Positions 10,383 to 63,491 of a stretch of DNA of 64,000 nt are shown here, in pieces. Position 1 is the stretch's first letter. Each line of letters starts with the position of its first letter. A program made the position numbers and the translations under genes. The notes under the pieces were generated by a model. The model saw only the letters and a program-made list of their open reading frames with translations, was not told the origin of the DNA and did no database searches. Source of the DNA: Naegleria gruberi (taxonomy: Eukaryota). The stretch lies in assembly GCA_000004985.1 (NCBI GenBank), contig GG738855.1. One strand, written 5' to 3'.

Positions 10383-13300
10383 ATGCTTCAGCACATGGTA
10401 AAATATTTAATTTTTCTTTCACTACTATTCATCAGTGTTGAGTATGTAATGAGTTTCAACTCCTATCAAAAGGAAACCCTTGTGAAGAATACTGACACTA
10501 CTCTTGAGGTACCTGCTGATATTGCTAAAATTGAACCCTCTAGTTTGTGTGTGATGGACAATGGTGATATTATATTTGTTGAAAAGACAATATTAAAAAG
10601 GTTCAAATCCAGCAGCAAAACTGTGGAATTGTTTCTCGGTAAGGGAAGTAGAACTGATGATGGTGTTGATTCTAAAAGTGTTGATTCAACGAGTGCTTCA
10701 ATGAATAATGTTGTGAGTGTTTTTAAATCACCTGCAACTGGTGATTGTGTCTACATGGATCAAAAACGTGTGAGGATGATATCAAAAACCACAAATTTGG
10801 TAACTACAATTGCTGGTTCACTCACAAGCACCAATACGTCAGACGGTCAGTTTGCCACTAGTGCTAAATTCTTTCCCAAAGCCTTTACTATTGATGAGTA
10901 TGGAAATTTGTATGTGGTAGATTTTAATGTTAGAATTAGGAAAGTTTCTAACACTACCAAAATGGTTTCAGCTTTTTCTGGAGCCACTGGAACAAGTGCT
11001 TCAACACTCCCAATAGATGGCTCACCTGCAAATACTAATCTAGGAAGCATTAGCAGCCTACTTGCAAAAAATGATATTGTTTACTTTACTGTGAGTAATG
11101 CCATTCTTAAAGTTGTTAATGGTGCCTATTATACAGTTGCTGGAAGTTGGATAGCATGTACACCTAATGCTACATTTGAGGGCGATGCTAAATCTGCTTG
11201 TTTTGACCAGCCAAAACTAGTAACAATTTCAGATGGTGAAATTCTCCTCACTGATAACTCTCTTACCATTAGGAAGATTGACAGGAATGGAGTTATTAAA
11301 ATAGTTGCTGGAACAGGAAGTGATATAATTGACATTTCTAGACAAGATCAAATGTTTCAAAATGTGACGTTTTTATTGGCGGGAATTTCAGTCGAAAAGA
11401 AAAATAATGAACTTGAATATTATCTCTCAATTGGAGGTGCCATCTTTAAAGCATTTGAAAAGTCAACCATTTCTGCCATTGTTAAAAAGAGTCTCAATTT
11501 ATCATACTCTTCTTATGATTATGGATTACAGTTTAAATCAGCCAAAAAGATTGCACAAGTATTTAGAAATGGTGATATTTTGATTATTGATCCTGATAAT
11601 CAAACTCTTTACAGATTTTCCAGACAGACAGGTATATTATCCCTTTTCACAAAACTGGACATTACAGTGACTATGTTATTTGTGGAAGATCTCAACTATT
11701 CATTCCTTTACATGGCCAGCACTATTACAAGTTGGAAAATTTACAAGTTTTACCTCAAAACAAAAAGTTTAGAACTTATTGCAGGAAATGACACTGGAAT
11801 ATTTTATAAATTTGATGGTCAAAAAGCTCTTGAAACCAGAATATATGGCATTGATGACATTAAAATTCATAATCATTTACTTTATTACAGAGATATGAGT
11901 TTGAATAGAATTATGGAATTGAATCCAAATACTGGTGAATTGAGAAGTTATTTTGGTAATGGTGAAGCTCAAGGAAAAGCTGTCGGTGGTATTAATGGAC
12001 ATTTACTTGGTTCTGAATTTATTAGAGAGAGTGCAAGTCCTGGAATAATGACTTTTGATTTGAATGGTGTTCTATATATCAGAAATACCAATATTGTGGT
12101 CTATATTGATAAGGATAAAAAATTAAGAAGATTTATAGGAAAGAATGGAGTGAGTGGACTAAACCTTTATTACCCTGTTCCAATTGAAGATGTTTTGATA
12201 GGTGGATCATCAACCATAAGGTTTCATCCAACTAGTGGAAATTGCTACCTTAATATTTACAACAGCACTTTTTCCAGCATATACCAAGTTTCAAACGGAA
12301 TGCTAACTGAAGAAATTAGAGTACCTGTCTCAACTTCTGTTGATTTTGCACTCACATCGAATGGAAGTATTTACTACTTACATGATGGTCTCAAAGTAAG
12401 ACACAAGGGAGCAGGAACCTCAGAAGTATTAATTAGTTTGGGTACCTATAATAGAATATGTCTTTCTGGTAATGATACATTAATTTTAAGTACAGTCAAT
12501 TCTCTTATATACAAGTATAATATCAATACTCGTGTACAAACATCACTTTCACTGTACACTTGGAAATATATCAGAACAATTCATTGTTCTATGAATAGTT
12601 CTGATGTTTATGTGAGTGATTTCCCAGTGACCAATCCAGTCACTTATTCCATTACAAAAATTACAAATTCATACACCTCAGTGGTTTCAGTGATTAAATC
12701 ACCATATCTTCCGTATGATATTGATTCGGTAGCATCAAGTCCAAGTGGAGAGCTGTATCTGCTTGCTACCAATGCAGTTCTTTATCAATTAGATTCCAAT
12801 ACAACATTGGAACCCATTGGTGGTTTAAAGATTAACACAACTTACTCGCTTCAACCAATGAGTAGATATGCTTTATGGTCGATTGCTCCAAATGGAGATG
12901 TCTATTTCAGAGAATATGAAGATGATAATCCTTTGAGAATAGCTTCTCCAAGTGCAAATATTGCTACAATCATTCCAGGAAATGGAACGCTTTACAATCC
13001 AACAACTTTGAATGGTTATAACAATGTTTTTGGAGAAGAATTTACCAAAGATGGATATCTTTTCATCATGTCCATGTTTAATGGTGAAAAAATACCTGAT
13101 GGAAAAACATTAACCTATTCTCCATTTACAGGTCTATATTTCTATTCTGATTTTGACTATAAATTTGGCCAGACAACCAAAACAAGAGATGGAGATTATC
13201 TATATTTAACCACATCATATGGAATTGAAAGATTATCTGTAGATTGTGTGAGAGATAGATATGGATTTTGCTACCAAGAAGATCCATTTTGTTTTGGAAT

Positions 13301-16300
13301 TCATTACAATAACGTTTCAGCTTGTGGTGGTCAAGGAGTTTGTTTCGATTACAATTCATGTGAATGTGAAGAGGGATATTTTGGACAAGATTGTTCACTC
13401 AGATTATGTTTTGGAACACTGAGTAATGAATCAGAATTGGTTTGTAGTGGAAATGGTAAATGTAATGATACTGACACATGTCAATGCAATGATGGCTATT
13501 TCTCTACTCAATGTGAAATTACTACTTGTTTTGGAATACTATCAAATGATACAAGTGTTTGCTCATCACATGGAAATTGTTCGTCTTGGAATAATTGTTC
13601 CTGTTTAGAAGGCTATTATGGAATTTATTGTAATGAAAGCAAGAGTTTCGGTAATGAAAATAATACCATTTCTAATAACACTTTTCAATCAAACGAAACC
13701 CATATTGAGAATACTACGATATCCTCAAATAGTACACTCAACTCTACCATTTCAAATTCAACTTTTGAAATAACCAATAGCTCACAAATTGAAAACTCAA
13801 CGTTACAATCAAATAATTCAAATTCAAATAACGTTTCTGTTATTAATAATACAACTGAACAAGGTACAAACAATAGTTTAATTTCGAATGAAACTCTTAA
13901 TAATAGCACAGATATAAGCAATCATTCAATGGTCAATGATACTCTAGTTTCTAATAGTACATACCATGGAACTAACTTTACACAAATGAATAATGATTCG
14001 ACTGTGAGAAATGACACAAATATCAACCTTCATTCAAATAGCACAAATAACTCAAGTATTTCAAATAATACAGTTTCTAATTCCAATACTACTGAAGGAC
14101 GAAACTATACTCAATTTAATGATACAATGAGAAATGAAACCATCTCTTCAAATATAACTACTAAAGAGACACTAAATGAAACAAGATTCGACAATATGGT
14201 GAATAATTCTATAGTGAACAGCACATTGAATTCTAATAACTCTCAAATATTGAATGATTCAACAGTTTCTAATAACACATCGATGTTCGAATGTTTTGGT
14301 AAAATGTTCAATAATTCTTTGGTGTGTAATGGGCATGGTTCTTGCATTTCACAGAATTTATGCAAATGTCATGATTTATATTTTGGTGTGGAGTGTCAAA
14401 ATAAGTCTATTGATCCAATTACCTGTTATGGAATTAACCAGTCCAATGACAGTGTGTGCAATAATGGTGGCGTTTGTATATCGAATGACACTTGTCAATG
14501 CAAGACTGGTTATTATGGTACGAAATGTTCTGTATTTCTTTTAGCACAACCTAATTTTAATAATTATGGTAATACTCTTGAATTTCATTTCAAAACTTCA
14601 ATTACTATGAGTGATCATGTTGTGGATTGTAAGAAAATCATAGTTACAGTTGATAATACCATTTTTGGAGAGAATCCAACATGTTATTGGAAGAACTCAA
14701 ATTTCTTTATTGAACTCGGAGGTCAACACTCCATTAGACAAAATATTACAATTAATGTGAATGGTTTGGATGATTCTGAAAGTAGAACTCTTTATTTATC
14801 ATTGACTGTGATTCCATCTCTCAATCCTGTGAAACCTGTTGCTGTATTGTCATACAAGAAATTGATTAGTAGTTGTGAGATGATTGAAATTGATGCTTCT
14901 CAATCCTATTGTGGTGATTTGAAACCATTAAAATATATTTGGTCAATTGAATCATCTGATGATCCTAAATTGAGCTTTCAAAATATAATTTACACTAATG
15001 AGTTCAATTCTTCCATTCGTGTAGATAATGGATCATCTGGTGTTTATATCTTTGGATTGATTATTCAAAGTTCATTGAGTGGTGTATCAAGTGAAAAGGA
15101 ATTTATCACTATCACCAAGTCAACTGTTCCAAGTCCAACAATTTCAATAATTAACAGCAAATTATCGAATGTAGAATTGAATAGTGTACCAATTATTATC
15201 AAAAAGACCATTGAATTTCCATCTTGCTATTTTGGTAATAAGGAATTCACCTATGTTTGGACCAAAATCAGTGGATCTTCATTGAATTATGAAATTGACT
15301 CTAATAATGATCTTGTAATTAAAGAATTCCAAGATGGTGCGGATCAGATTTATTCATTCCAACTTCAAGCTCAATTCGACTCTCATTCAAATAGCTCAAC
15401 TTCAAGTGTCACAATATCAACAAAATCCAAAGAGCTTGAGTTGAATATTTTCACATCAAGCTTGTCAACTTCAGAGGCAACGTTACAAGTTGAATATTCA
15501 GATCCAGATAACTTACAATCAACAGAAGAATGGACATGGAAATGCCTTGATTCAAAGCAGGCTTGTCAAGATGCTTCAATTACTTCCTCTTTGGCTTTAT
15601 GTTCCAAGAAAAAATCTGAAACTTGTACCATTCAAAAGTCAACACTTTCAAAATTCGATATTTCCTTATTGATTCAAAAAGGATCAAGATTTATTGAAAA
15701 AAGTATTGAGGTAACTTTCCCATCTAGTGTGTCAAATATTCCTCCAGCGATTAGTTTAGTATCAGTTTATCCAAAGAGGTTTAAGGTTACTAAAGATGAA
15801 ATTTTGAGTTTACAACTTTCTGTAATTTTAAATGGTGATGAAAAGATAACTCTCGAAGAAAATATATCAAGAGAATGGACAATGAACGATAAATCCATTG
15901 ATGCATCCATGACAACCTTGATGAAATCTGACATTTCAAAAACTTCTTCTCTAATTTTATCACTTTCTGAACTGCTTGAGGATACTGAGTATACACTCAC
16001 ACTCAAAGCAACGGATATTATCAATGGACTAGCTTCTTTATATTCCTATTCTTTCAAAGTTGTAAAATCTCCAAAATCTTGCAAATGTTCAATAAGTCCA
16101 TCATCAGGTTACGCTTTGGAAACTTCCTTCTCATTTTCATGTCCTAATTGTCAGAATGCAGAAGGCACAATTGATTTTGTCTTTGGATTTATTGACGACA
16201 AGTCAGGTGTCAAGATTCCACTTTACAACTTGGGAGAGAAATTTGCAACTTATTTCCCATCTCCATATACAGGTGAAACTTTATCAACATTTGTTTCAAT

Positions 16301-58107: not shown

Positions 58108-60343
58108 ATGAATGGCGTCAAAAAAATGCTCGCATCAACCTCAACAGCTTTCCCTCAATCATCATCATTCGATGGTAACAATAATGAGGAAAATTCAAAG
58201 CAATCTTTTCGGAAGTTGAGAATTGAGGCACCACCAATAGTACAATATGAATTTGATAGAAGAGGAGGAGGAAGTACATCAAAACAACTTCCTCCACTAT
58301 TAGCAAATCAACCAAGAACCATTTCCAATGGTGATATTCTCTCCACTCCAACTAACAGGAGGTTATCTCCCGTGCTTAAGAGATCGATGAGTGCATCACC
58401 ATCAACAGAAATGGGACTTGAATCACCGGTCCTTCTAATTTCTAAACCTTTTGAAAGTGAAAATGATGGCTTTGAGCCGGGAGAGGCATCAGAAGCTGAA
58501 TTGTTGGAAAGAGGTGCACTCTTTTATTCACCACTTTTCATTTAGGAACAGATTAACAGTAGGACCTGAGATTAGGTCCCCAACACCTCCAAGGCTAAAG
58601 AGAGGGTATTCAAATAGATCTCTCAAAGAAATACCTACAGAATTACTCCCAACCATTGTCTCAGTATCATCACCAACATCATCTAATCTTTCACCCTCTC
58701 CACTATTAGAGGAAGTCAGAAGACAACAAGGTGACCTTTCCATTCCTATTTCTCCTTCTTCAAACTCATCACTTCCTCCAACACCACCATCAATTAAAGG
58801 AAGACTCTCGAAACAACCTTCATTTACAGATCCTAATGCTAGAAGAATGAAAAGTTCGGGAAGTTCAACTGGTACCTTTCTTACGGAAGTTTCCTTAAAG
58901 TCTATGGATAGTTTTTTCATTCCAAGCCCTCCTAAACAAGTTCATTTACTTCCAGATTTTCTCTTTTCCCCCCAAACAGAAAATATTGAAAATTGCAGAT
59001 TTCCTTCTGATTTTAATAATCCTCAATTTCCAAGAAATAGACCCCTAAATCCAAAATATGTGTTGAACAAGACTCTCATACTATATTTCCCTTCTCTCTT
59101 CTCAGATTACACTAATTCAGAACATAGAATTCAGTTTAATGACTTATTTTTGACAGAGCAAAATCAATCGATACTAATTGACTCTTTTTGGTGGTTTTTC
59201 TTGACTGTATTTTCAAAGGATTATCTTTTAAGAAAAGCAGTTCAATATTACGAGTACATGATAGAGAAGGAGTTGGAGAAGAGAAAAGAAAAGAATAACT
59301 TTTTCCTAAGAAAGGAACAACACAAAGTTTACAAAGAGAAAGGAGAGAATTGGGCAAACCAAGTTTATAAGAAACTTTTAGGAGAATTACCTGCCATTGA
59401 AAATAGAATTTCTAATAATTATGCAGAGCTTGTTGTTAAATTTATTACTCACAGATCTTACACCATCAAGACAAATATACAACTTGATTTGGATGATATA
59501 TTTATTGAGGTTATTTCGAAATCTGTTTTTCTTGCTTATGGGTTAAATTTTCCAGATTGTCATGAAATATTCGAAACAGAAGCGTTTCAAGCAAGAGTAG
59601 CGAGACAATTTCAATTGTGGTGTTTTGGTGTCTGTACCATTAATTTACCATTTCTTGACACCTTATGGATGTTTAAAATGGAGTTGAAATCACCTCCCTA
59701 TGTAAGGGATGAGCATTCTCTATCTCCAAAGCAAAGATTCAAGAGAGCTATCCAAGCTGTCAGAGTTGGTTACAATGAAAGTATTGTTAAAACAAAGGAA
59801 GTGAGAGAAGAATTAGAAAAGGCATTGGATAACCTTGAATATAATGATTATTCACCAGCCTACAATTTATTTGAGATGTTTTTTGAAGATGAATCTGAAT
59901 TTGCAGCAATTAGAAAACAAAACAAAAGGTTGCAAATTATGGAGGCGTTCACTTCTGGAGCTACTCTTAAAGAAGAAGAATTGAATGAAATTATTGAATG
60001 TGACGATAGGGATGAAGAGCTATTTATTGAACTTCAAATATTAAAAGAAAAGAAGGAAAAGAACATATTTGCCAAACCTCTTCCTTCTAAAGATATCAAG
60101 GAAATAGCTGCTGTCAGAGAGAAAGCTTGGTATGAAATGGGTGAAGGAACAACTAAAACGCTTGTTACAAATATTAAACAAGTGAAAACACTAGGAACCT
60201 TTAAAACCTATTCACACAGCAAAAAATCAAGCCCTCTAGTTTCTCAATATTTGACCTTACTTCGTCACAATAAGGCAACTCAAAGAAAGCAAGAACGATT
60301 TGAAAAGAGAATGGAATTAAGAAAAAATTACATGAAGGAATAG
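58108..60343 (+). CDS. FWWh-domain (FAM227-like) protein, about 730 aa. Probably two exons: 58108..58502 and 58546..60343; alternatively a frameshift at 58451-58545
   Basis: The conserved block ...QSILIDSFWWFFLTVFSKDYLLRKAVQYYEYM... matches the FWWh motif family. Two overlapping ORFs (58108..58545 and 58451..60343) can be joined by a 43-nt intron (TT|GTTGGA...CATTTAG|G), but the donor is weak. Confidence 0.55.
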
Positions 60344-60444
60344 TATTTGTAAATTCTAGTGCAAATTTAGAATGGATTGCTTTGCGAGAGAAGAAATACC
60401 CATTGGTGCATTGGTGCCGAGAATAGATGATACACTTTAAAAAA

Positions 60445-60915
60445 ATGTTTTCATTCAATGATATCGATTGTATCCTTCCTGGAAAGCTCTATCTCGGAAA
60501 CGAACTAGGAGCTGATTGTCTAGAATCATTACAAGAACACTCAATCACACATGTAGTGCAGATAAGAAGTCCTTTCCTTTATTATTCATCAATTGTTCCT
60601 TTTCCTGATAATTTCAAATATCTTCAGTTAAATTTTGCTGATAACGACAAGACAGAAATTCAACAATACTTTTCCGAGACTTTTGAATTTATTTCCTCTG
60701 CTTTGGAAAATTCTGGAATTGTGTATGTGCACTGTGCAATGGGTGTTTCTAGAAGTTCATCAATTGTAATTGCTTTTCTAATGAAATATATGAAATTAGA
60801 TTTCAATAATGCACTTTCAATAGTTGAGAGATGTAGACCTATTGTTCAACCAAATCAAGGATTCATCAAACAATTACAAGAATATGAAAATAAATTAAAG
60901 GAACAATCTCTGTGA
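60445..60915 (+). CDS. Dual-specificity protein phosphatase (DUSP), about 156 aa
   Basis: Catalytic loop VHCAMGVSRSSSIVIAFLM (HCxxGxxRS) with the upstream general-acid region. First ATG at 60445. Confidence 0.8.
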   Translation: MFSFNDIDCILPGKLYLGNELGADCLESLQEHSITHVVQIRSPFLYYSSIVPFPDNFKYLQLNFADNDKTEIQQYFSETFEFISSALENSGIVYVHCAMGVSRSSSIVIAFLMKYMKLDFNNALSIVERCRPIVQPNQGFIKQLQEYENKLKEQSL

Positions 60916-60979: not shown

Positions 60980-62179
60980 ATGCTTCAACAATCAACAAGA
61001 TTTGCACTCAGAAAATTTAATCATCATCACACCCCTTCGGGTTTATTATTTTGGAATCCGTCATGTAATTCCTTCCACGCTAATAATTGTTTTAAACAAG
61101 CAAGCGAAGGAACACCATCAAAAAGCATGGATGTTATTTATCAGGAATTAGAAAATCAGAGACAATATTACTTGAATTACGTAAAGAAGAAGGAAGAAAC
61201 AGATGAAGAAGTTCTTCAAAATTATAATGCTCTTTTTAGACCATTTTTAAAAGCCTATATTAAAGATATTCGTTTTCTAGTTGATCGTTATGAACCTCTC
61301 CGAATTCAAAAAGAAATAGAAAAGGATATTAAAGATGGTAATATGCCAAAGAAATACAATGTTAGTTGGGTTACACCTAGTGCTGTTAGTCAATTTAGAA
61401 CTGAAAATCAACCTCTTGCATTAAGACTTCTTGGTTTCTTTGGACAAGAATCAATTATTAACAGATCCACTGACTTTGTCTGGAACATGATATTAAATCA
61501 TATCAATGCTATTAGAAAGAGTGGAATTTATGAAAAAGTTAATCTTGGTAATGTTAGTTGGACTGGTTCAGACTTTTTCGTTTGGACTTTACATTTGTGG
61601 GTAATTTTCAGAAGATTACGTTTTGAAGGAAGTGATGGCGATTTAATGTCAAAGAAATTGTGTGATAGATTTTGGAATTATGTTGAACATTACATTAATG
61701 ATACTTATAAGGTTAATGCATATACTCTTCCAAAGAATTTAAAGAGACTCCAACAAATTCACTACGGTATTTGTATTCAATTGGATGAAATTCTTGATTT
61801 GGAAAATTCTGCCAACACAACTGATTCTGCTCCTTCCTCATGGGATCCAAAAACTTTATCAGAACTTATTAAGGATTCTTCAGATCAAGATTCTTTGATT
61901 GCAGAAGTTGTTTGGAGAAATTTCTATTGTGGTGGTGTTGAATTTAAAAACTTGGATGTTGACGATACAGTTTCTGGTGAGGTTGAAGTGACAGCAGAGG
62001 ATGTATTATTCTGGACTAGATATATTCGTTACTTGTTGTGTTGGACTGATCACGTCGACTCTGTAATTTTGATGAGAGGATTATTCCATTATCACTTGCC
62101 TCAAGATGATTTTGTAACAAAATTCAAAGCAGGAGATGCTGCATTCGCTCCACCTTATCTTCCAACTACCAAAAAATAA
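60980..62179 (+). CDS. Ubiquinol-cytochrome c reductase assembly chaperone Cbp3/UQCC1-like protein, 399 aa
   Basis: The central block ...SDFFVWTLHLWVIFRRLRFEGSDGDLMSKKLCDRFWNYVEHYIN...LPKNLKRLQQIHYG resembles the Cbp3 domain (hydrophobic-W...LH.W....RL... then FW.......R). Basic N-terminus compatible with a presequence. Confidence 0.55.
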   Translation: MLQQSTRFALRKFNHHHTPSGLLFWNPSCNSFHANNCFKQASEGTPSKSMDVIYQELENQRQYYLNYVKKKEETDEEVLQNYNALFRPFLKAYIKDIRFLVDRYEPLRIQKEIEKDIKDGNMPKKYNVSWVTPSAVSQFRTENQPLALRLLGFFGQESIINRSTDFVWNMILNHINAIRKSGIYEKVNLGNVSWTGSDFFVWTLHLWVIFRRLRFEGSDGDLMSKKLCDRFWNYVEHYINDTYKVNAYTLPKNLKRLQQIHYGICIQLDEILDLENSANTTDSAPSSWDPKTLSELIKDSSDQDSLIAEVVWRNFYCGGVEFKNLDVDDTVSGEVEVTAEDVLFWTRYIRYLLCWTDHVDSVILMRGLFHYHLPQDDFVTKFKAGDAAFAPPYLPTTKK

Positions 62180-62341: not shown

Positions 62342-63491
62342 CTATTCGTTTGATGATGATGCTGTTGCTGCCTTTTCCTTTTGTTTTTCTTCGTACTTTT
62401 GTAAAAATCGCAAAGCAACAAGAGAGGCATTTTGTTCAGCCAGTTTACGACTAGGGAATAATTTTGACAACATGAATTCCTTCTTGATTGGTTTTTCAAT
62501 AACTACTGAGATTCTTTCACCATTTTCTTGTGGATTTTGTTTTGGAAGCTTTTCATATTTAGCATCTGGGTATTTTCTAGATTGTGTATAGTTCAATAAT
62601 TGTTCCTTTGGAGTTTGTTTTTCCTTCCAAGAAGATGGATCATATTCCTCATCAATTTCTTCACTAATTTCTTCCTCATCATCACCTTCCAAGAACAAAT
62701 CTTCATCGATAGCATCTTCTGGAATTTCATAGACGGTTTCATCAGCTTCTTCGTCATCTACGAAGAGAGCTTCATTCATCTTGAACAATTCACGACCAGA
62801 CAAACCTTGACCAGACTTTTCATAGAGAGCCATTTGTAATTTACGTTTTCTTTCTTCTTCCTTCTTTTGTTGTTCAACCTTGAATTGCTTCCATTTAGTG
62901 AAGGATTCATATGTAACAGGTGTACCATCCATAATCTTGGCTCTTTCCTTTTCAACAATTTCTTCAATAGAAAGTTCAGCTTCATCAGCCATTTCTTGTT
63001 CAAGGGAATCAAAGGTAACTTCTTCACCTTCTTGTCCTTCTTCTGTTGATGCTTCTTCAGCCTTTTCATCCTTCTTACCATCAATAGTTTTGAACAAATC
63101 CTTTAATTCTTGTTCTCTCTTCTTTTGAGCCAACTTTTCAAGACGTTTCTTTTCCTTTTCTGCCATTTCCTGCTTGACTTTCTTGTCATGGACTTGGTTA
63201 ACAGTGTTGGAAACACTCTTAACATAGGTTTGAACGGTCTTTGATTTGTTCTTATTCTTCAAACCAAAGGTCTTGTCTTCAATAATTTTGTTTTTTTGTT
63301 TCTACAAGAACAACAACATTCCGCATACAAGTATTCGTTAATGATACAAATTATCCAATAATTCAATACAATTATAACAACATAATAATAAGCGTCATCA
63401 CAAGAACGATTGAAGTACTCCATCAATAACAACATTCCGTTAAAAAACTTACTTGCTCAGTCTTCTTGCTCACTTTTGGTGGTCCAGCCAT
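62342..63491 (-). CDS. ZC3H15: DRG-family regulatory protein DFRP1 / ZC3H15 (yeast Tma46)-like, lacking the CCCH zinc fingers. Two exons: 63453..63491 and 62342..63301; intron 63302..63452
   Basis: Exon 1 MAGPPKVSKKTEQ|(GTAAGT). Exon 2 KQKNKIIEDKTFGLKNKNKSKTVQTYVKSV matches the ZC3H15 N-terminus (KIIEDKTFGLKNKKG). The downstream block ELSIEEIVEKERAKIMDGTPVTYESFTKWKQFK...SGRELF...DDEEADE matches the DFRP domain ([32 protein letters not shown]...SGREVF...DDDEEAD). Confidence 0.75.

What the first reader, a model, noticed from the sequence alone, without database searches (positions are those of the whole stretch)
62342..63491. ZC3H15/DFRP1 homologue that retains the DRG-binding (DFRP) region but has no CCCH zinc fingers
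The N-terminal exon plus the start of exon 2 align with the ZC3H15/Tma46 N-terminus. The DFRP block (ELSIEEIVEKERAKI...VTYESFTKWKQFK...SGRELF...DDEEADE) is conserved. The roughly 130-aa segment that carries the two C3H fingers in animals and yeast is replaced by an acidic E/D-rich linker with no Cys/His pattern. The gene has a 151-nt intron immediately after a 13-codon first exon.
Basis: partly seen in the sequence, partly recalled or inferred. Interest (0 to 1): 0.5.

Follow-up and report, generated by a model that had tools for sequence, protein, structure and literature searches.

The report
Fingerless DFRP1 carrying a dsRNA-binding domain
This Naegleria gruberi gene encodes the partner protein of the ribosome-associated GTPase DRG1, but it has no zinc fingers (the part that attaches the yeast protein to the ribosome) and instead carries a previously unremarked double-stranded-RNA-binding domain at its C-terminal end.

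Summary
On the minus strand, 63491..62342 is a two-exon gene: a 13-codon exon, a 151-nt GTAAGT..TAG intron, then one long exon. The 332-aa protein has 0 Cys and 1 His. It matches Pfam DFRP_C at 70 bits (cut-off 27.5). Its N-terminus carries the invariant Tma46/ZC3H15 motif (KIIEDKTFGLKNKNKSK). About 35 acidic residues stand where yeast Tma46 has about 127 residues holding two CCCH fingers.

The window is Naegleria gruberi. The gene is NAEGRDRAFT_64637, deposited as "predicted protein".

A family profile finds only dsRBDs in the PDB (best 5e-8, Dus2). AlphaFold gives an alpha-beta-beta-beta-alpha fold (pLDDT 81-92) that superposes on the human Dus2 dsRBD (rmsd 1.9 Å).

The same architecture occurs in N. 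fowleri, N. lovaniensis, Willaertia, Acrasis and the jakobid Andalucia, so it is a Discoba-type DFRP1. Of 258 collected relatives, 105 have fingers, 36 have the dsRBD and none has both. Many others have neither.

My inference, not tested, is that the dsRBD supplies the RNA contact that the fingers give in yeast. This is a new variant of a known family and is of moderate interest.

The parts
63453..63491 (-). Exon 1: ATG plus 12 codons (MAGPPKVSKKTEQ), with an in-frame TGA two codons upstream
   Evidence: The same 12-13-codon first exon ending in ..KKTEQ occurs in N. lovaniensis and N. fowleri.
63302..63452 (-). Intron, 151 nt, GTAAGT...TTGTAG, phase 0
   Evidence: The position is conserved in N. 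lovaniensis (212 nt) and N. fowleri. The deposited N. gruberi model uses an AG 30 nt further downstream and so deletes KQKNKIIEDK.
62342..63301 (-). Exon 2: residues 14-332 plus the TAA stop (62342..62344), one uninterrupted ORF
63233..63301 (-). Residues 14-36: the conserved DFRP1 N-terminal basic motif KQKNKIIEDKTFGLKNKNKSKTV
   Evidence: K18, D22, T24, F25, G26, L27, K28, N29, K30 and S33 are invariant across 19 fingered and fingerless homologues. The motif aligns to Tma46 residues 2-70.
63089..63232 (-). Residues 37-84: basic helical segment that precedes the fingers in canonical DFRP1
   Evidence: AF2 helices 34-50 and 53-84, pLDDT about 81-86. It aligns with Tma46 up to residue 84.
62981..63088 (-). 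Residues 85-120: acidic, disordered linker at the position of the two CCCH fingers (11 Glu, 4 Asp, no Cys or His)
   Evidence: pLDDT is below 50 for residues 86-107. Tma46 residues 85-211 have no counterpart.
62732..62977 (-). Residues 122-203: DFRP (DRG-binding) domain, including the short helix, the long helix with F147/W150/K151, and SGRELF...LFVDDEEAD
   Evidence: Pfam DFRP_C 70.1 bits, E=2.4e-19. AF2 helices 125-135, 144-176 and 182-188. F147, W150 and K151 correspond to human DFRP1 F255, W258 and K259, reported as DRG1 contacts.
62645..62731 (-). Residues 204-232: acidic tail with the conserved DEDLFLE motif, which is the usual C-terminal end of DFRP1. It is disordered and here serves as the linker to the dsRBD.
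   Evidence: D212 and F216 are invariant, L215 and L217 nearly so. Canonical proteins end with a similar (D/E)xxLF acidic tail. pLDDT is below 50 for residues 216-229.
62387..62644 (-). Residues 233-318: double-stranded-RNA-binding domain with a short N-terminal extension (YDPSSW)
   Evidence: Family profile against the PDB: 25 hits, all dsRBDs, best 5e-8. Pfam dsrm hits 12 of 17 family members, best 1.3e-7; the N. gruberi protein alone scores 17.9 bits, below the 23-bit cut-off. AF2 gives H244-254, E261-265, E275-281, E287-290, H298-, pLDDT 81-92. Foldseek best hit is the hDus2 dsRBD, TM 0.72, rmsd 1.9 Å.
62345..62386 (-). Residues 319-332: Lys/Glu-rich tail that continues the last helix; not conserved
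63314..63323 (-). Copy 2 of the intronic motif CGGAATGTTG, 12-21 nt upstream of the 3' splice site
   Evidence: The motif occurs only twice in the 64-kb window, both times in this intron (0.02 expected). Related motifs lie in the orthologous introns of N. lovaniensis and N. fowleri.
63430..63439 (-). Copy 1 of the intronic motif CGGAATGTTG, 13 nt downstream of the 5' splice site

Best explanation
The locus is the Naegleria gruberi gene for DFRP1 (the ZC3H15/Tma46 family), the regulatory partner of the ribosome-associated GTPase DRG1. It has a domain layout typical of Discoba.

Shown:
- The protein keeps the family's invariant N-terminal basic motif.
- It keeps the following basic helices.
- It keeps the DFRP domain with the residues that contact DRG1 in other species.
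- It keeps the acidic C-terminal tail.
- The ~127-residue segment with two CCCH zinc fingers is absent and is replaced by a ~35-residue acidic disordered linker.
- A dsRBD of the Dus2-like kind is appended after the acidic tail.

Inferred:
- The protein still forms a heterodimer with DRG1 through the DFRP domain.
- The dsRBD supplies the RNA contact (18S rRNA helices, or A-site tRNA or mRNA) that recruits the complex to translating ribosomes. In yeast this job is done by the second zinc finger, wedged between h16 and h33 of the 40S subunit.
- The long acidic linker lets the C-terminal dsRBD reach an RNA helix near the GTPase-associated centre.
For: Identity.
- The product is 100% identical to N. 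gruberi XP_002680036.1/D2V717 apart from a 10-residue splice difference.
- DFRP_C scores 70 bits.
- Tma46 is the best PDB hit, in two stretches that flank the finger region.
- There is no RWD domain and no Gir2/RWDD1 hit.

DRG1 interface.
- F147, W150 and K151 match human DFRP1 F255, W258 and K259, which were described as DRG1 contacts; mutation of W258 was tested in that study.
- These residues and SGRxLF..F.DD are invariant in 17 family members.

Absence of fingers.
- 0 Cys, and no CCCH pattern in any frame of the locus.

dsRBD.
- Profile against the PDB gives only dsRBDs, best 5e-8.
- The AF2 fold has pLDDT 81-92.
- Foldseek top 50 are nearly all dsRBDs; hDus2 gives TM 0.72 and rmsd 1.9 Å.
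- RNA-contact positions of hDus2 are T369, K371, K419, K420 and Q424. They correspond to T243, K245, R298, K299 and Q303 here. P244, K245, K299, A301 and E302 are invariant or nearly so in the family. This pattern is typical of RNA-binding dsRBDs rather than protein-binding ones.

Need for an RNA anchor.
- Deleting the Tma46 finger domain abolishes ribosome binding of Rbg1/Tma46.
- A mutation in finger 2 prevents rescue of the triple-knockout yeast strain (ΔTma46 ΔGir2 ΔSlh1) growth phenotype.
- Tma46 recruits Rbg1 to polysomes.

Mutual exclusion.
- Of 258 relatives, 105 have fingers, 36 have the dsRBD and 0 have both (Fisher p=1e-9, not corrected for phylogeny).

Conservation.
- The same layout is found in N. 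fowleri, N. lovaniensis, Willaertia, Acrasis and the jakobid Andalucia godoyi.

A second, independent swap.
- Thraustochytrid homologues carry a probable OB-fold insert exactly at the finger position.

Precedent.
- A dsRBD docked on the small ribosomal subunit exists: the DHX29 dsRBD is among the Foldseek hits (9cpa_h, 22tu_DH).
Against: - Nothing here shows RNA or ribosome binding. The dsRBD role is an inference from domain identity.
- 117 of the 258 relatives have neither fingers nor a dsRBD, for example kinetoplastids, diplonemids and red algae. A dedicated RNA-binding module is therefore not obligatory in all lineages, and the dsRBD need not be a 'replacement'.
- The dsRBD sits at the opposite end of the protein from the fingers, so it cannot occupy the same site by simple substitution.
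- The canonical GPxH loop is missing.
- alpha1 has N250 where hDus2 has the RNA-contacting E376.
- The N. gruberi sequence alone is below Pfam's dsrm threshold (17.9 against 23 bits).
- The mutual exclusion may reflect a single ancestral event in Discoba.
- I could not verify the presence of DRG1 in Naegleria, nor the absence of a second, fingered paralogue.
Confidence: 0.6

Rival explanations
1. The protein is a normal DFRP1 whose ribosome recruitment relies on the conserved N-terminal basic motif and helices together with DRG1's own TGS, HTH and G-domain contacts. The dsRBD has a separate accessory job. Examples are binding A-site or free tRNA as the Dus2 dsRBD does, selecting particular structured mRNAs, or acting as a protein-protein interaction module.
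For: - Fingerless relatives without any dsRBD are widespread and appear complete: 109 full-length sequences, median 261 aa, including Leptomonas, Trypanoplasma, Diplonema, Porphyra and Galdieria.
- The N-terminal motif is the most invariant part of the whole family.
- The closest solved dsRBDs are those of Dus2, a tRNA-binding dsRBD.
- Rbg1's S5D2L domain touches the A-site tRNA in the yeast complex.
- Some dsRBDs, such as Staufen dsRBD5, bind proteins, and they also appear among the fold matches.
Against: - In yeast, removing the finger domain abolishes ribosome binding even though the rest of the complex is intact. A core without any RNA module is therefore not sufficient there.
- The KK-type basic start of helix alpha2 and the K of alpha1 are conserved across the family. 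Protein-binding dsRBDs usually lose these residues (general knowledge of the domain, not tested here).
- The basic residues R361/R362 of the Dus2 N-terminal extension, which give tRNA preference, are not conserved here; the equivalent positions are P235 and S236.
Confidence: 0.28
2. This is a diverged paralogue. Naegleria also has a canonical fingered DFRP1 elsewhere, or a stand-alone protein carrying the ZC3H15-type fingers, so nothing has really been lost.
For: - The tools here cannot search the N. gruberi genome, so absence was not shown directly.
- Only the best 120 of 1561 hits were visible.
Against: - Among the named hits, fingered proteins of distant taxa (Cavenderia, Planoprotostelium, Achlya, Piromyces) appear at 82-92 bits. 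Yet no second protein appears from N. gruberi, N. fowleri, N. lovaniensis, Willaertia or Acrasis, although all five have proteomes in the database.
- The sister lineages in Discoba (Andalucia, kinetoplastids, Diplonema) also show only fingerless forms.
- The protein keeps the orthologue-defining N-terminal motif.
- The locus is syntenic in three Naegleria species.
Confidence: 0.08
3. Gene-model artefact: finger-coding exons exist but were missed, or the C-terminal dsRBD belongs to a neighbouring gene that has been fused by read-through.
For: The deposited N. gruberi model is itself slightly wrong at the exon 2 acceptor, so annotation errors do occur at this locus.
Against: - Residues 14-332 are one uninterrupted ORF running from the N-terminal motif through the DFRP domain to the dsRBD.
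- No CCCH pattern occurs in any frame of the locus, including the intron.
- The same continuous layout appears in intron-less genomic ORFs (P0010, P0011) and in the MMETSP transcript P0020, labelled 'type:complete'; other EukProt entries such as P0017 and P0131 show it too.
Confidence: 0.02

Closest known systems
DFRP1 / ZC3H15 / Lerepo4 (animals) and Tma46 (yeast), partner of DRG1/Rbg1
   Same: - The N-terminal basic motif (IEDKTFGLKNKNKS) and the following basic helices.
- The DFRP domain with the F..WK contact residues and the SGRxLF..LFVDDE segment.
- The acidic C-terminal tail with a (D/E)xxLF motif.
- Best PDB sequence match, in two stretches.
   Different: - Both CCCH zinc fingers, together with the ~127-residue segment that carries them, are absent.
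- A dsRBD is added after the tail.
- In yeast the fingers are required for ribosome binding and function, so the recruitment mechanism must differ at least in part.
DFRP2 / RWDD1 / Gir2, partner of DRG2/Rbg2
   Same: It shares the DFRP domain and, like the Naegleria protein, has no zinc fingers.
   Different: [quoted passage not shown] The Naegleria protein has no RWD match and hits no Gir2/RWDD1 chain in the PDB.
Extended dsRBD of animal tRNA-dihydrouridine synthase 2 (Dus2; PDB 4wft, 5oc6, 1whn)
   Same: - It is the best sequence and structure match of the C-terminal domain: profile E=5e-8 to 3.5e-7, TM 0.72, rmsd 1.9 Å, 26% identity.
- The KKLAEQ start of helix alpha2 corresponds to RKLAEQ here.
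- The TPK start of helix alpha1 is shared.
- Neither has the GPxH loop motif.
- Both have an N-terminal extension.
   Different: - The host protein is entirely different: a flavoenzyme in one case, a GTPase cofactor in the other.
- The basic residues of the Dus2 extension that favour tRNA (R361/R362) are not conserved.
- The Naegleria family has its own YDPxTW extension motif.
- Common descent of the two domains is not shown.
Fingerless short DFRP1 of Euglenozoa, red algae and some stramenopiles (e.g. Leptomonas ABB37_08156, Diplonema 'ZC3H11'-labelled protein, Porphyra BU14_0816s0005)
   Same: They share the N-terminal motif, the DFRP domain and the acidic tail, and they have no CCCH fingers.
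   Different: They stop after the acidic tail (about 210-270 aa) and have no dsRBD. Kinetoplastids and diplonemids instead carry a conserved EYLWTADDFD motif at the former finger position.

Membership tests
DFRP1 / ZC3H15 / Tma46 | Conserved N-terminal basic motif (..K.IEDKTFGLKNKNKS..) | tested here: met
   Residues 18-34 are KIIEDKTFGLKNKNKSK. K18, D22, T24-K30 and S33 are invariant in 19 homologues. The motif aligns to Tma46 residues 2-70.
DFRP1 / ZC3H15 / Tma46 | Two CCCH-type zinc fingers between the N-terminal helices and the DFRP domain | tested here: not met
   0 Cys and 1 His in 332 aa. No CCCH pattern in six frames of the locus. Tma46 residues 85-211 have no counterpart. The fingers fall in an alignment gap.
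DFRP1 / ZC3H15 / Tma46 | DFRP (DRG-binding) domain, Pfam PF16543 | tested here: met
   70.1 bits, E=2.4e-19, cut-off 27.5, residues 122-203. The domain is present in all 17 family members.
DFRP1 / ZC3H15 / Tma46 | Conserved DRG1-contact residues (human F255, W258, K259) | tested here: met
   F147, W150 and K151 are invariant in the family. The residue roles are taken from bioRxiv 10.1101/2023.05.31.543024.
DFRP1 / ZC3H15 / Tma46 | Physical binding to DRG1 and stabilisation of it | not testable with these tools
   No complex prediction or experiment is available. The presence of DRG1 in Naegleria was not verified; only N. lovaniensis DRG2 was seen in a published table.
DFRP1 / ZC3H15 / Tma46 | Association with translating ribosomes | not testable with these tools
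   Known for yeast and human. There are no data for Naegleria.
DFRP2 / RWDD1 / Gir2 | N-terminal RWD domain | tested here: not met
   No RWD family appears in the Pfam scan at E<=1. No Gir2/RWDD1 chain appears in the PDB searches.
dsRBD (Pfam PF00035 dsrm) | Sequence match to the dsRBD profile | tested here: met
   The N. gruberi protein alone gives E=0.0047 and 17.9 bits, below the 23-bit cut-off. Twelve of 17 orthologues match, best 1.3e-7. The family profile finds 25 PDB chains, all dsRBDs, best 5e-8.
dsRBD (Pfam PF00035 dsrm) | alpha-beta-beta-beta-alpha fold | tested here: met
   AF2 gives H244-254, E261-265, E275-281, E287-290 and H298-, with pLDDT 81-92. Foldseek against the PDB: hDus2 dsRBD TM 0.72 and rmsd 1.9 Å; HYL1 0.81; Staufen dsRBD5 0.85.
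dsRBD (Pfam PF00035 dsrm) | RNA-contact motifs: alpha1 polar/E, beta1-beta2 GPxH loop, KKxAK at the start of alpha2 | tested here: inconclusive
   Region 3 is present as R298-K299-L-A-E-Q303 (KK in most orthologues; K299 nearly invariant). The alpha1 residues T243 and K245 are present, but N250 replaces E. There is no GPxH loop, as in Dus2.
dsRBD (Pfam PF00035 dsrm) | Binding of double-stranded RNA | not testable with these tools
   This needs EMSA or ITC with the isolated domain.
Dus2-type extended dsRBD | N-terminal extension with basic residues (R361/R362, Q367) that give tRNA preference | tested here: not met
   An extension exists (E232-YDPSSW-K239, pLDDT about 81; W238 invariant). The positions equivalent to R361/R362 are P235 and S236, and Q367 corresponds to K241.

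The most novel reading that the evidence does not exclude
DFRP1 is a modular adaptor. Its conserved core is the N-terminal motif plus the DFRP domain. Its nucleic-acid-binding module has been exchanged several times in eukaryote evolution:
- tandem CCCH fingers in most groups;
- a C-terminal Dus2-like dsRBD in Discoba (Heterolobosea and Jakobida);
- an OB-fold insert at the finger position in thraustochytrids;
- nothing in Euglenozoa and red algae.

If so, the Naegleria DRG1-DFRP1 complex docks on the ribosome through a different RNA element (an rRNA helix or the A-site tRNA) than the h16/h33 cleft used by the yeast finger. The anchoring site would then be evolutionarily free while the GTPase position is fixed.
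Probability: 0.35. Interest if true: 0.6.

Novelty: new variant of a known kind. Interest (0 to 1): 0.45.

Why it matters
In the DRG/DFRP literature read here, DFRP1 is described as having two conserved CCCH fingers. In yeast the fingers are required for ribosome association of the GTPase complex.

A whole eukaryotic supergroup-level lineage (Discoba) lacks the fingers and carries a dsRBD instead, and another lineage has a probable OB fold at the finger site. This indicates that the ribosome-tethering module is interchangeable.

That gives natural experiments for asking what the tether actually has to do: find stalled ribosomes, bind a particular rRNA cleft, or simply raise local concentration.

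It also corrects the functional annotation of a 'predicted protein' in N. gruberi and of 'hypothetical proteins' in the pathogen N. fowleri. In a full-text search, no paper held both 'DFRP' and 'dsRBD'.

Tried and rejected
- Hidden finger exon or alternative exon in 62900-63200. Rejected: the ORF is continuous and no CCCH pattern occurs in any frame. The only two CCCH-like strings in the window are at 13245-13304 (+) and at 60137-60190 (-). The latter is antisense to a 630-aa ORF, so it is a chance match.
- DFRP2 identity. Rejected: no RWD domain.
- Rfam scan of the locus, including the intron. Only sub-threshold chance matches, none in the intron.
- Foldseek against AFDB50, to obtain organisms for similar models. 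The library is not installed.
- Exact look-up of the deposited N. gruberi protein to fetch its scaffold. Not on record.
- Search for a DRG GTPase or an RWD protein in the window by motif. None found.
- Pfam and PDB sequence searches for the inserts of other fingerless relatives (P0165/P0180). No hit.
- Taxonomic origin of most environmental dsRBD-type members (P0007-P0020, P0125-P0138). Not resolved; only sample numbers were obtained.
- Presence of DRG1, and absence of a fingered paralogue, in Naegleria. Not testable, because no tool searches eukaryotic genomes and protein searches list only the best 120 hits.
Full report
**1. What is in the sequence**

The feature lies on the minus strand.
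- The ATG is at 63491, and an in-frame TGA sits two codons upstream.
- Exon 1 (63491..63453) encodes MAGPPKVSKKTEQ.
- A 151-nt intron follows (63452..63302, GTAAGT...TTGTAG, 29% GC).
- Exon 2 (63301..62342) is one uninterrupted ORF ending in TAA.

The product is 332 aa. It is very rich in Glu (58) and Lys (53), with 0 Cys and 1 His.

**2. Source and existing annotation**

The closest database proteins identify the organism as Naegleria gruberi.
- The 90% cluster of the 100%-identical hit contains XP_002680036.1 / D2V717_NAEGR / NAEGRDRAFT_64637, named 'predicted protein'.
- Orthologues are 78% identical in N. lovaniensis, 77% in N. fowleri, 62% in Willaertia magna and 50% in Acrasis kona.

The deposited N. 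gruberi model is 322 aa. It joins exon 1 to an AG 30 nt further downstream (MAGPPKVSKKTEQ|TFGLKNK) and so removes KQKNKIIEDK. That segment contains residues invariant in the whole family (K18, D22). N. lovaniensis and N. fowleri both have a phase-0 intron at the same place, followed by KEKKKIIEDK.

The locus is syntenic. A Ubiq_cyt_C_chap (Cbp3-like) gene lies convergently downstream in all three Naegleria species.

**3. The DFRP1 core is real and significant**

- Pfam DFRP_C matches residues 122-203 with 70.1 bits, E=2.4e-19, against a cut-off of 27.5.
- phmmer against the PDB finds yeast Tma46 (7rr5_T) as the only significant hit.
- A profile of 17 orthologues raises this to 8.6e-10 in two stretches: profile 6-94 = Tma46 5-84, and profile 116-163 = Tma46 212-261. 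It also hits the Tma46 fragment of the Rbg1 complex 4a9a.
- The N-terminal motif KIIEDKTFGLKNKNKSK is nearly invariant across fingered and fingerless homologues from many supergroups.
- F147, W150 and K151 correspond to human DFRP1 F255, W258 and K259, reported as DRG1 contacts. They are invariant in the family, as are G182, L185, F186, F193 and D195 of the SGRELF...LFVDDEE segment.
- AlphaFold predicts a short helix (125-135), a long helix (144-176) and a short helix (182-188) here. This matches the alpha6/alpha7/alpha8 description of human DFRP1.
- There is no RWD domain, so this is DFRP1-like and not DFRP2-like.

**4. The fingers are truly absent**

- In an alignment with fingered proteins (Cavenderia, Planoprotostelium, Achlya, Piromyces, Hyaloraphidium, Piptocephalis and one more), both CCCH blocks fall in a gap of the Naegleria sequence.
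- The gap is bridged by residues 87-121, an acidic stretch predicted to be disordered (pLDDT below 50 for 86-107).
- Tma46 residues 85-211 have no counterpart.
- No CCCH pattern exists in any of the six frames of the locus, intron included.
- Exon 2 runs without interruption from the N-terminal motif to the stop, so a missed exon is excluded.
- Intron-less genomic ORFs (P0010, P0011) and the MMETSP transcript P0020 (labelled 'type:complete'), together with EukProt entries, show the same layout.

**5.

- Residues 244-313 give a weak Pfam dsrm match (E=0.0047, 17.9 bits, below the 23-bit cut-off).
- The family settles the question. Twelve of 17 orthologues match dsrm, best 1.3e-7.
- A profile of the C-terminal ~90 residues (alignment A2) finds 25 PDB chains at E<=0.01, and every one is a dsRBD. 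They include mouse and human Dus2 (5e-8 and 3.5e-7), DRB4, HYL1, TRBP, MLE, Staufen and RNase III.
- AlphaFold (17-sequence alignment) gives helix 244-254, strands 261-265, 275-281 and 287-290, and a helix from 298, with pLDDT 81-92.
- Foldseek against the PDB returns dsRBDs almost exclusively. The best is the human Dus2 dsRBD (TM 0.72, rmsd 1.9 Å, 26% identity). Also present are HYL1 (0.81), Staufen dsRBD5 (0.85) and the 40S-bound dsRBD of DHX29.
- The residues that contact RNA in hDus2 are T369, K371, E376 and R379 in alpha1, and K419, K420 and Q424 at the start of alpha2. They align with T243, K245, N250, Q253, R298, K299 and Q303.
- P244 and K245 are invariant, and K299, A301, E302, A305 and L307 are invariant or nearly so.
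- As in Dus2 there is no GPxH loop.
- The family has its own N-terminal extension, (E/V)YDPxTW, with invariant W238. It lacks the basic pair R361/R362 that gives Dus2 its tRNA preference.
- The dsRBD follows the conserved DEDLFLE acidic tail. That tail is where canonical DFRP1 proteins end, so the dsRBD is an addition to an otherwise complete fingerless DFRP1.

**6. Distribution**

- A profile search of 1.84 billion representatives found 1678 DFRP-family proteins (E<=1e-3). About 18 clusters at 50% identity extend through the dsRBD.
- I classified all 258 proteins collected. Of these, 105 have a CCCH pattern, 36 have the dsRBD, none has both and 117 have neither (Fisher p=1e-9). The sample is biased toward the query and is not phylogenetically independent.
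- Named dsRBD-type members are Naegleria (three species), Willaertia, Acrasis and the jakobid Andalucia godoyi (ANDGO_06782). The Andalucia dsRBD scores E=2.9e-18 although it was not used to build the model.
- The layout is therefore likely ancestral to at least Heterolobosea plus Jakobida within Discoba. Kinetoplastids and Diplonema have a short fingerless form without a dsRBD.
- Red algae and some stramenopiles are also fingerless.
- Thraustochytrid proteins (P0151 from Thraustochytrium sp. LLF1b, plus P0163 and P0192) carry a ~110-residue beta-rich insert exactly at the finger position. The AlphaFold model is of low confidence (mean pLDDT 53.6). Even so, its best 30 or so Foldseek hits are all OB-fold nucleic-acid binders: Sulfolobus SSB, Pot1, Teb1, RPA, hSSB1 and HIN. 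This tentatively points to a second, independent module swap.

**7. Mechanism**

Established elsewhere:
- DFRP1 binds DRG1 through the DFRP domain, stabilises it and stimulates its GTPase.
- Tma46 recruits Rbg1 to polysomes.
- The second finger sits between h16 and h33 of the 40S subunit.
- Deleting the finger domain abolishes ribosome binding.
- A finger-2 mutant does not rescue the triple-knockout yeast strain's growth phenotype.

Shown here: the Naegleria protein keeps the DRG1-binding part and the N-terminal motif, lacks the fingers and has a dsRBD.

Inferred (about 45-60% confidence): the dsRBD, on a ~30-residue acidic flexible linker, supplies the RNA contact to the ribosome or its ligands.

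The main rival (about 28%) is that recruitment needs only the conserved core plus DRG1, as must be the case in lineages with neither module. On that view the dsRBD does something else, such as binding tRNA, mRNA or a protein.

A fingered paralogue elsewhere in the genome (about 8%) could not be excluded directly. It is made unlikely because no second Heterolobosean hit appears among named hits, although fingered proteins of distant taxa were listed at similar scores.

**8. Novelty and score**

- The gene is in the databases, but only as 'predicted protein', 'hypothetical protein' or 'ZC3H15/TMA46 family C-terminal domain-containing protein'.
- The DRG/DFRP papers read here describe DFRP1 as having two conserved CCCH fingers.
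- No paper in the searchable library holds both DFRP and dsRBD.

This is a new variant of a known family and not a new kind of system. Its interest is moderate. It bears directly on how the DRG1 complex is tethered to ribosomes, and it offers natural domain-swap variants. The function remains inferred.

Noticed in passing
window 63272..63301 (minus strand): The deposited N. gruberi gene model (XP_002680036.1, 322 aa) splices exon 1 to an AG 30 nt downstream of the acceptor used here. This deletes KQKNKIIEDK, which includes family-invariant residues. The N. lovaniensis and N. fowleri models keep this segment. The reference annotation is probably wrong by 10 codons.
   Followed up: yes
window 63314..63323 and 63430..63439 (minus strand, inside the intron); L004 1537..1748; L005 intron: The 10-mer CGGAATGTTG occurs only twice in the 64-kb window, both times in this 151-nt intron: near the 5' splice site, and 12-21 nt before the 3' splice site (0.02 expected). 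The orthologous introns carry ACGGAATGTTG plus TGCGGAATTG (N. lovaniensis) and TGCGGAATTG (N. fowleri). The rest of the introns does not align well. There is no Rfam match. This may be a conserved intronic element of unknown role.
   Followed up: partly
related proteins P0151 (Thraustochytrium sp. LLF1b, MMETSP0198), P0163, P0192: These DFRP1 homologues have no fingers. They carry a ~110-residue beta-rich insert at the finger position. A low-confidence AlphaFold model of it matches OB-fold ssDNA/RNA-binding domains (Sulfolobus SSB, Pot1, Teb1, RPA) in the top ~30 Foldseek hits. There is no Pfam hit.
   Followed up: partly
related proteins P0165 and P0180: Two further fingerless DFRP1 homologues carry a different ~100-residue insert at the finger position (...NPKYGVRLSELGG.P...). 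It has no Pfam match and no PDB sequence match. Its fold and origin are unknown.
   Followed up: partly
related proteins P0034, P0051, P0075, P0028, P0146, P0159, P0161, P0188, P0193 (kinetoplastids, Diplonema and unnamed relatives): The short fingerless DFRP1 of Euglenozoa shares a conserved motif (E/D)YLWTA(D/E)DFD at the place where the fingers would be. Its function is unknown.
   Followed up: no
window 60980..62179 (+), 60427..60915 (+), 58451..60343 (+): The neighbouring ORFs are a Cbp3-like ubiquinol-cytochrome c chaperone (convergent with the DFRP1 gene, 163 nt between the stop codons), a dual-specificity phosphatase, and a protein with an FWWh domain. The chaperone gene is in the same position in N. 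lovaniensis and N. fowleri.
   Followed up: partly
L004 64..1170 (N. lovaniensis, upstream of the DFRP1 orthologue): A DDE_3 transposase-like gene sits next to the N. lovaniensis orthologue. No counterpart was seen at the corresponding side of the N. gruberi window end or in N. fowleri.
   Followed up: no
window 13245..13304 (+): This is the only sense-oriented CCCH-like string in the window (CVRDRYGFCYQEDPFCFGIH). I did not examine it further. Its spacing fits the loose pattern only, so it is probably a chance match.
   Followed up: no
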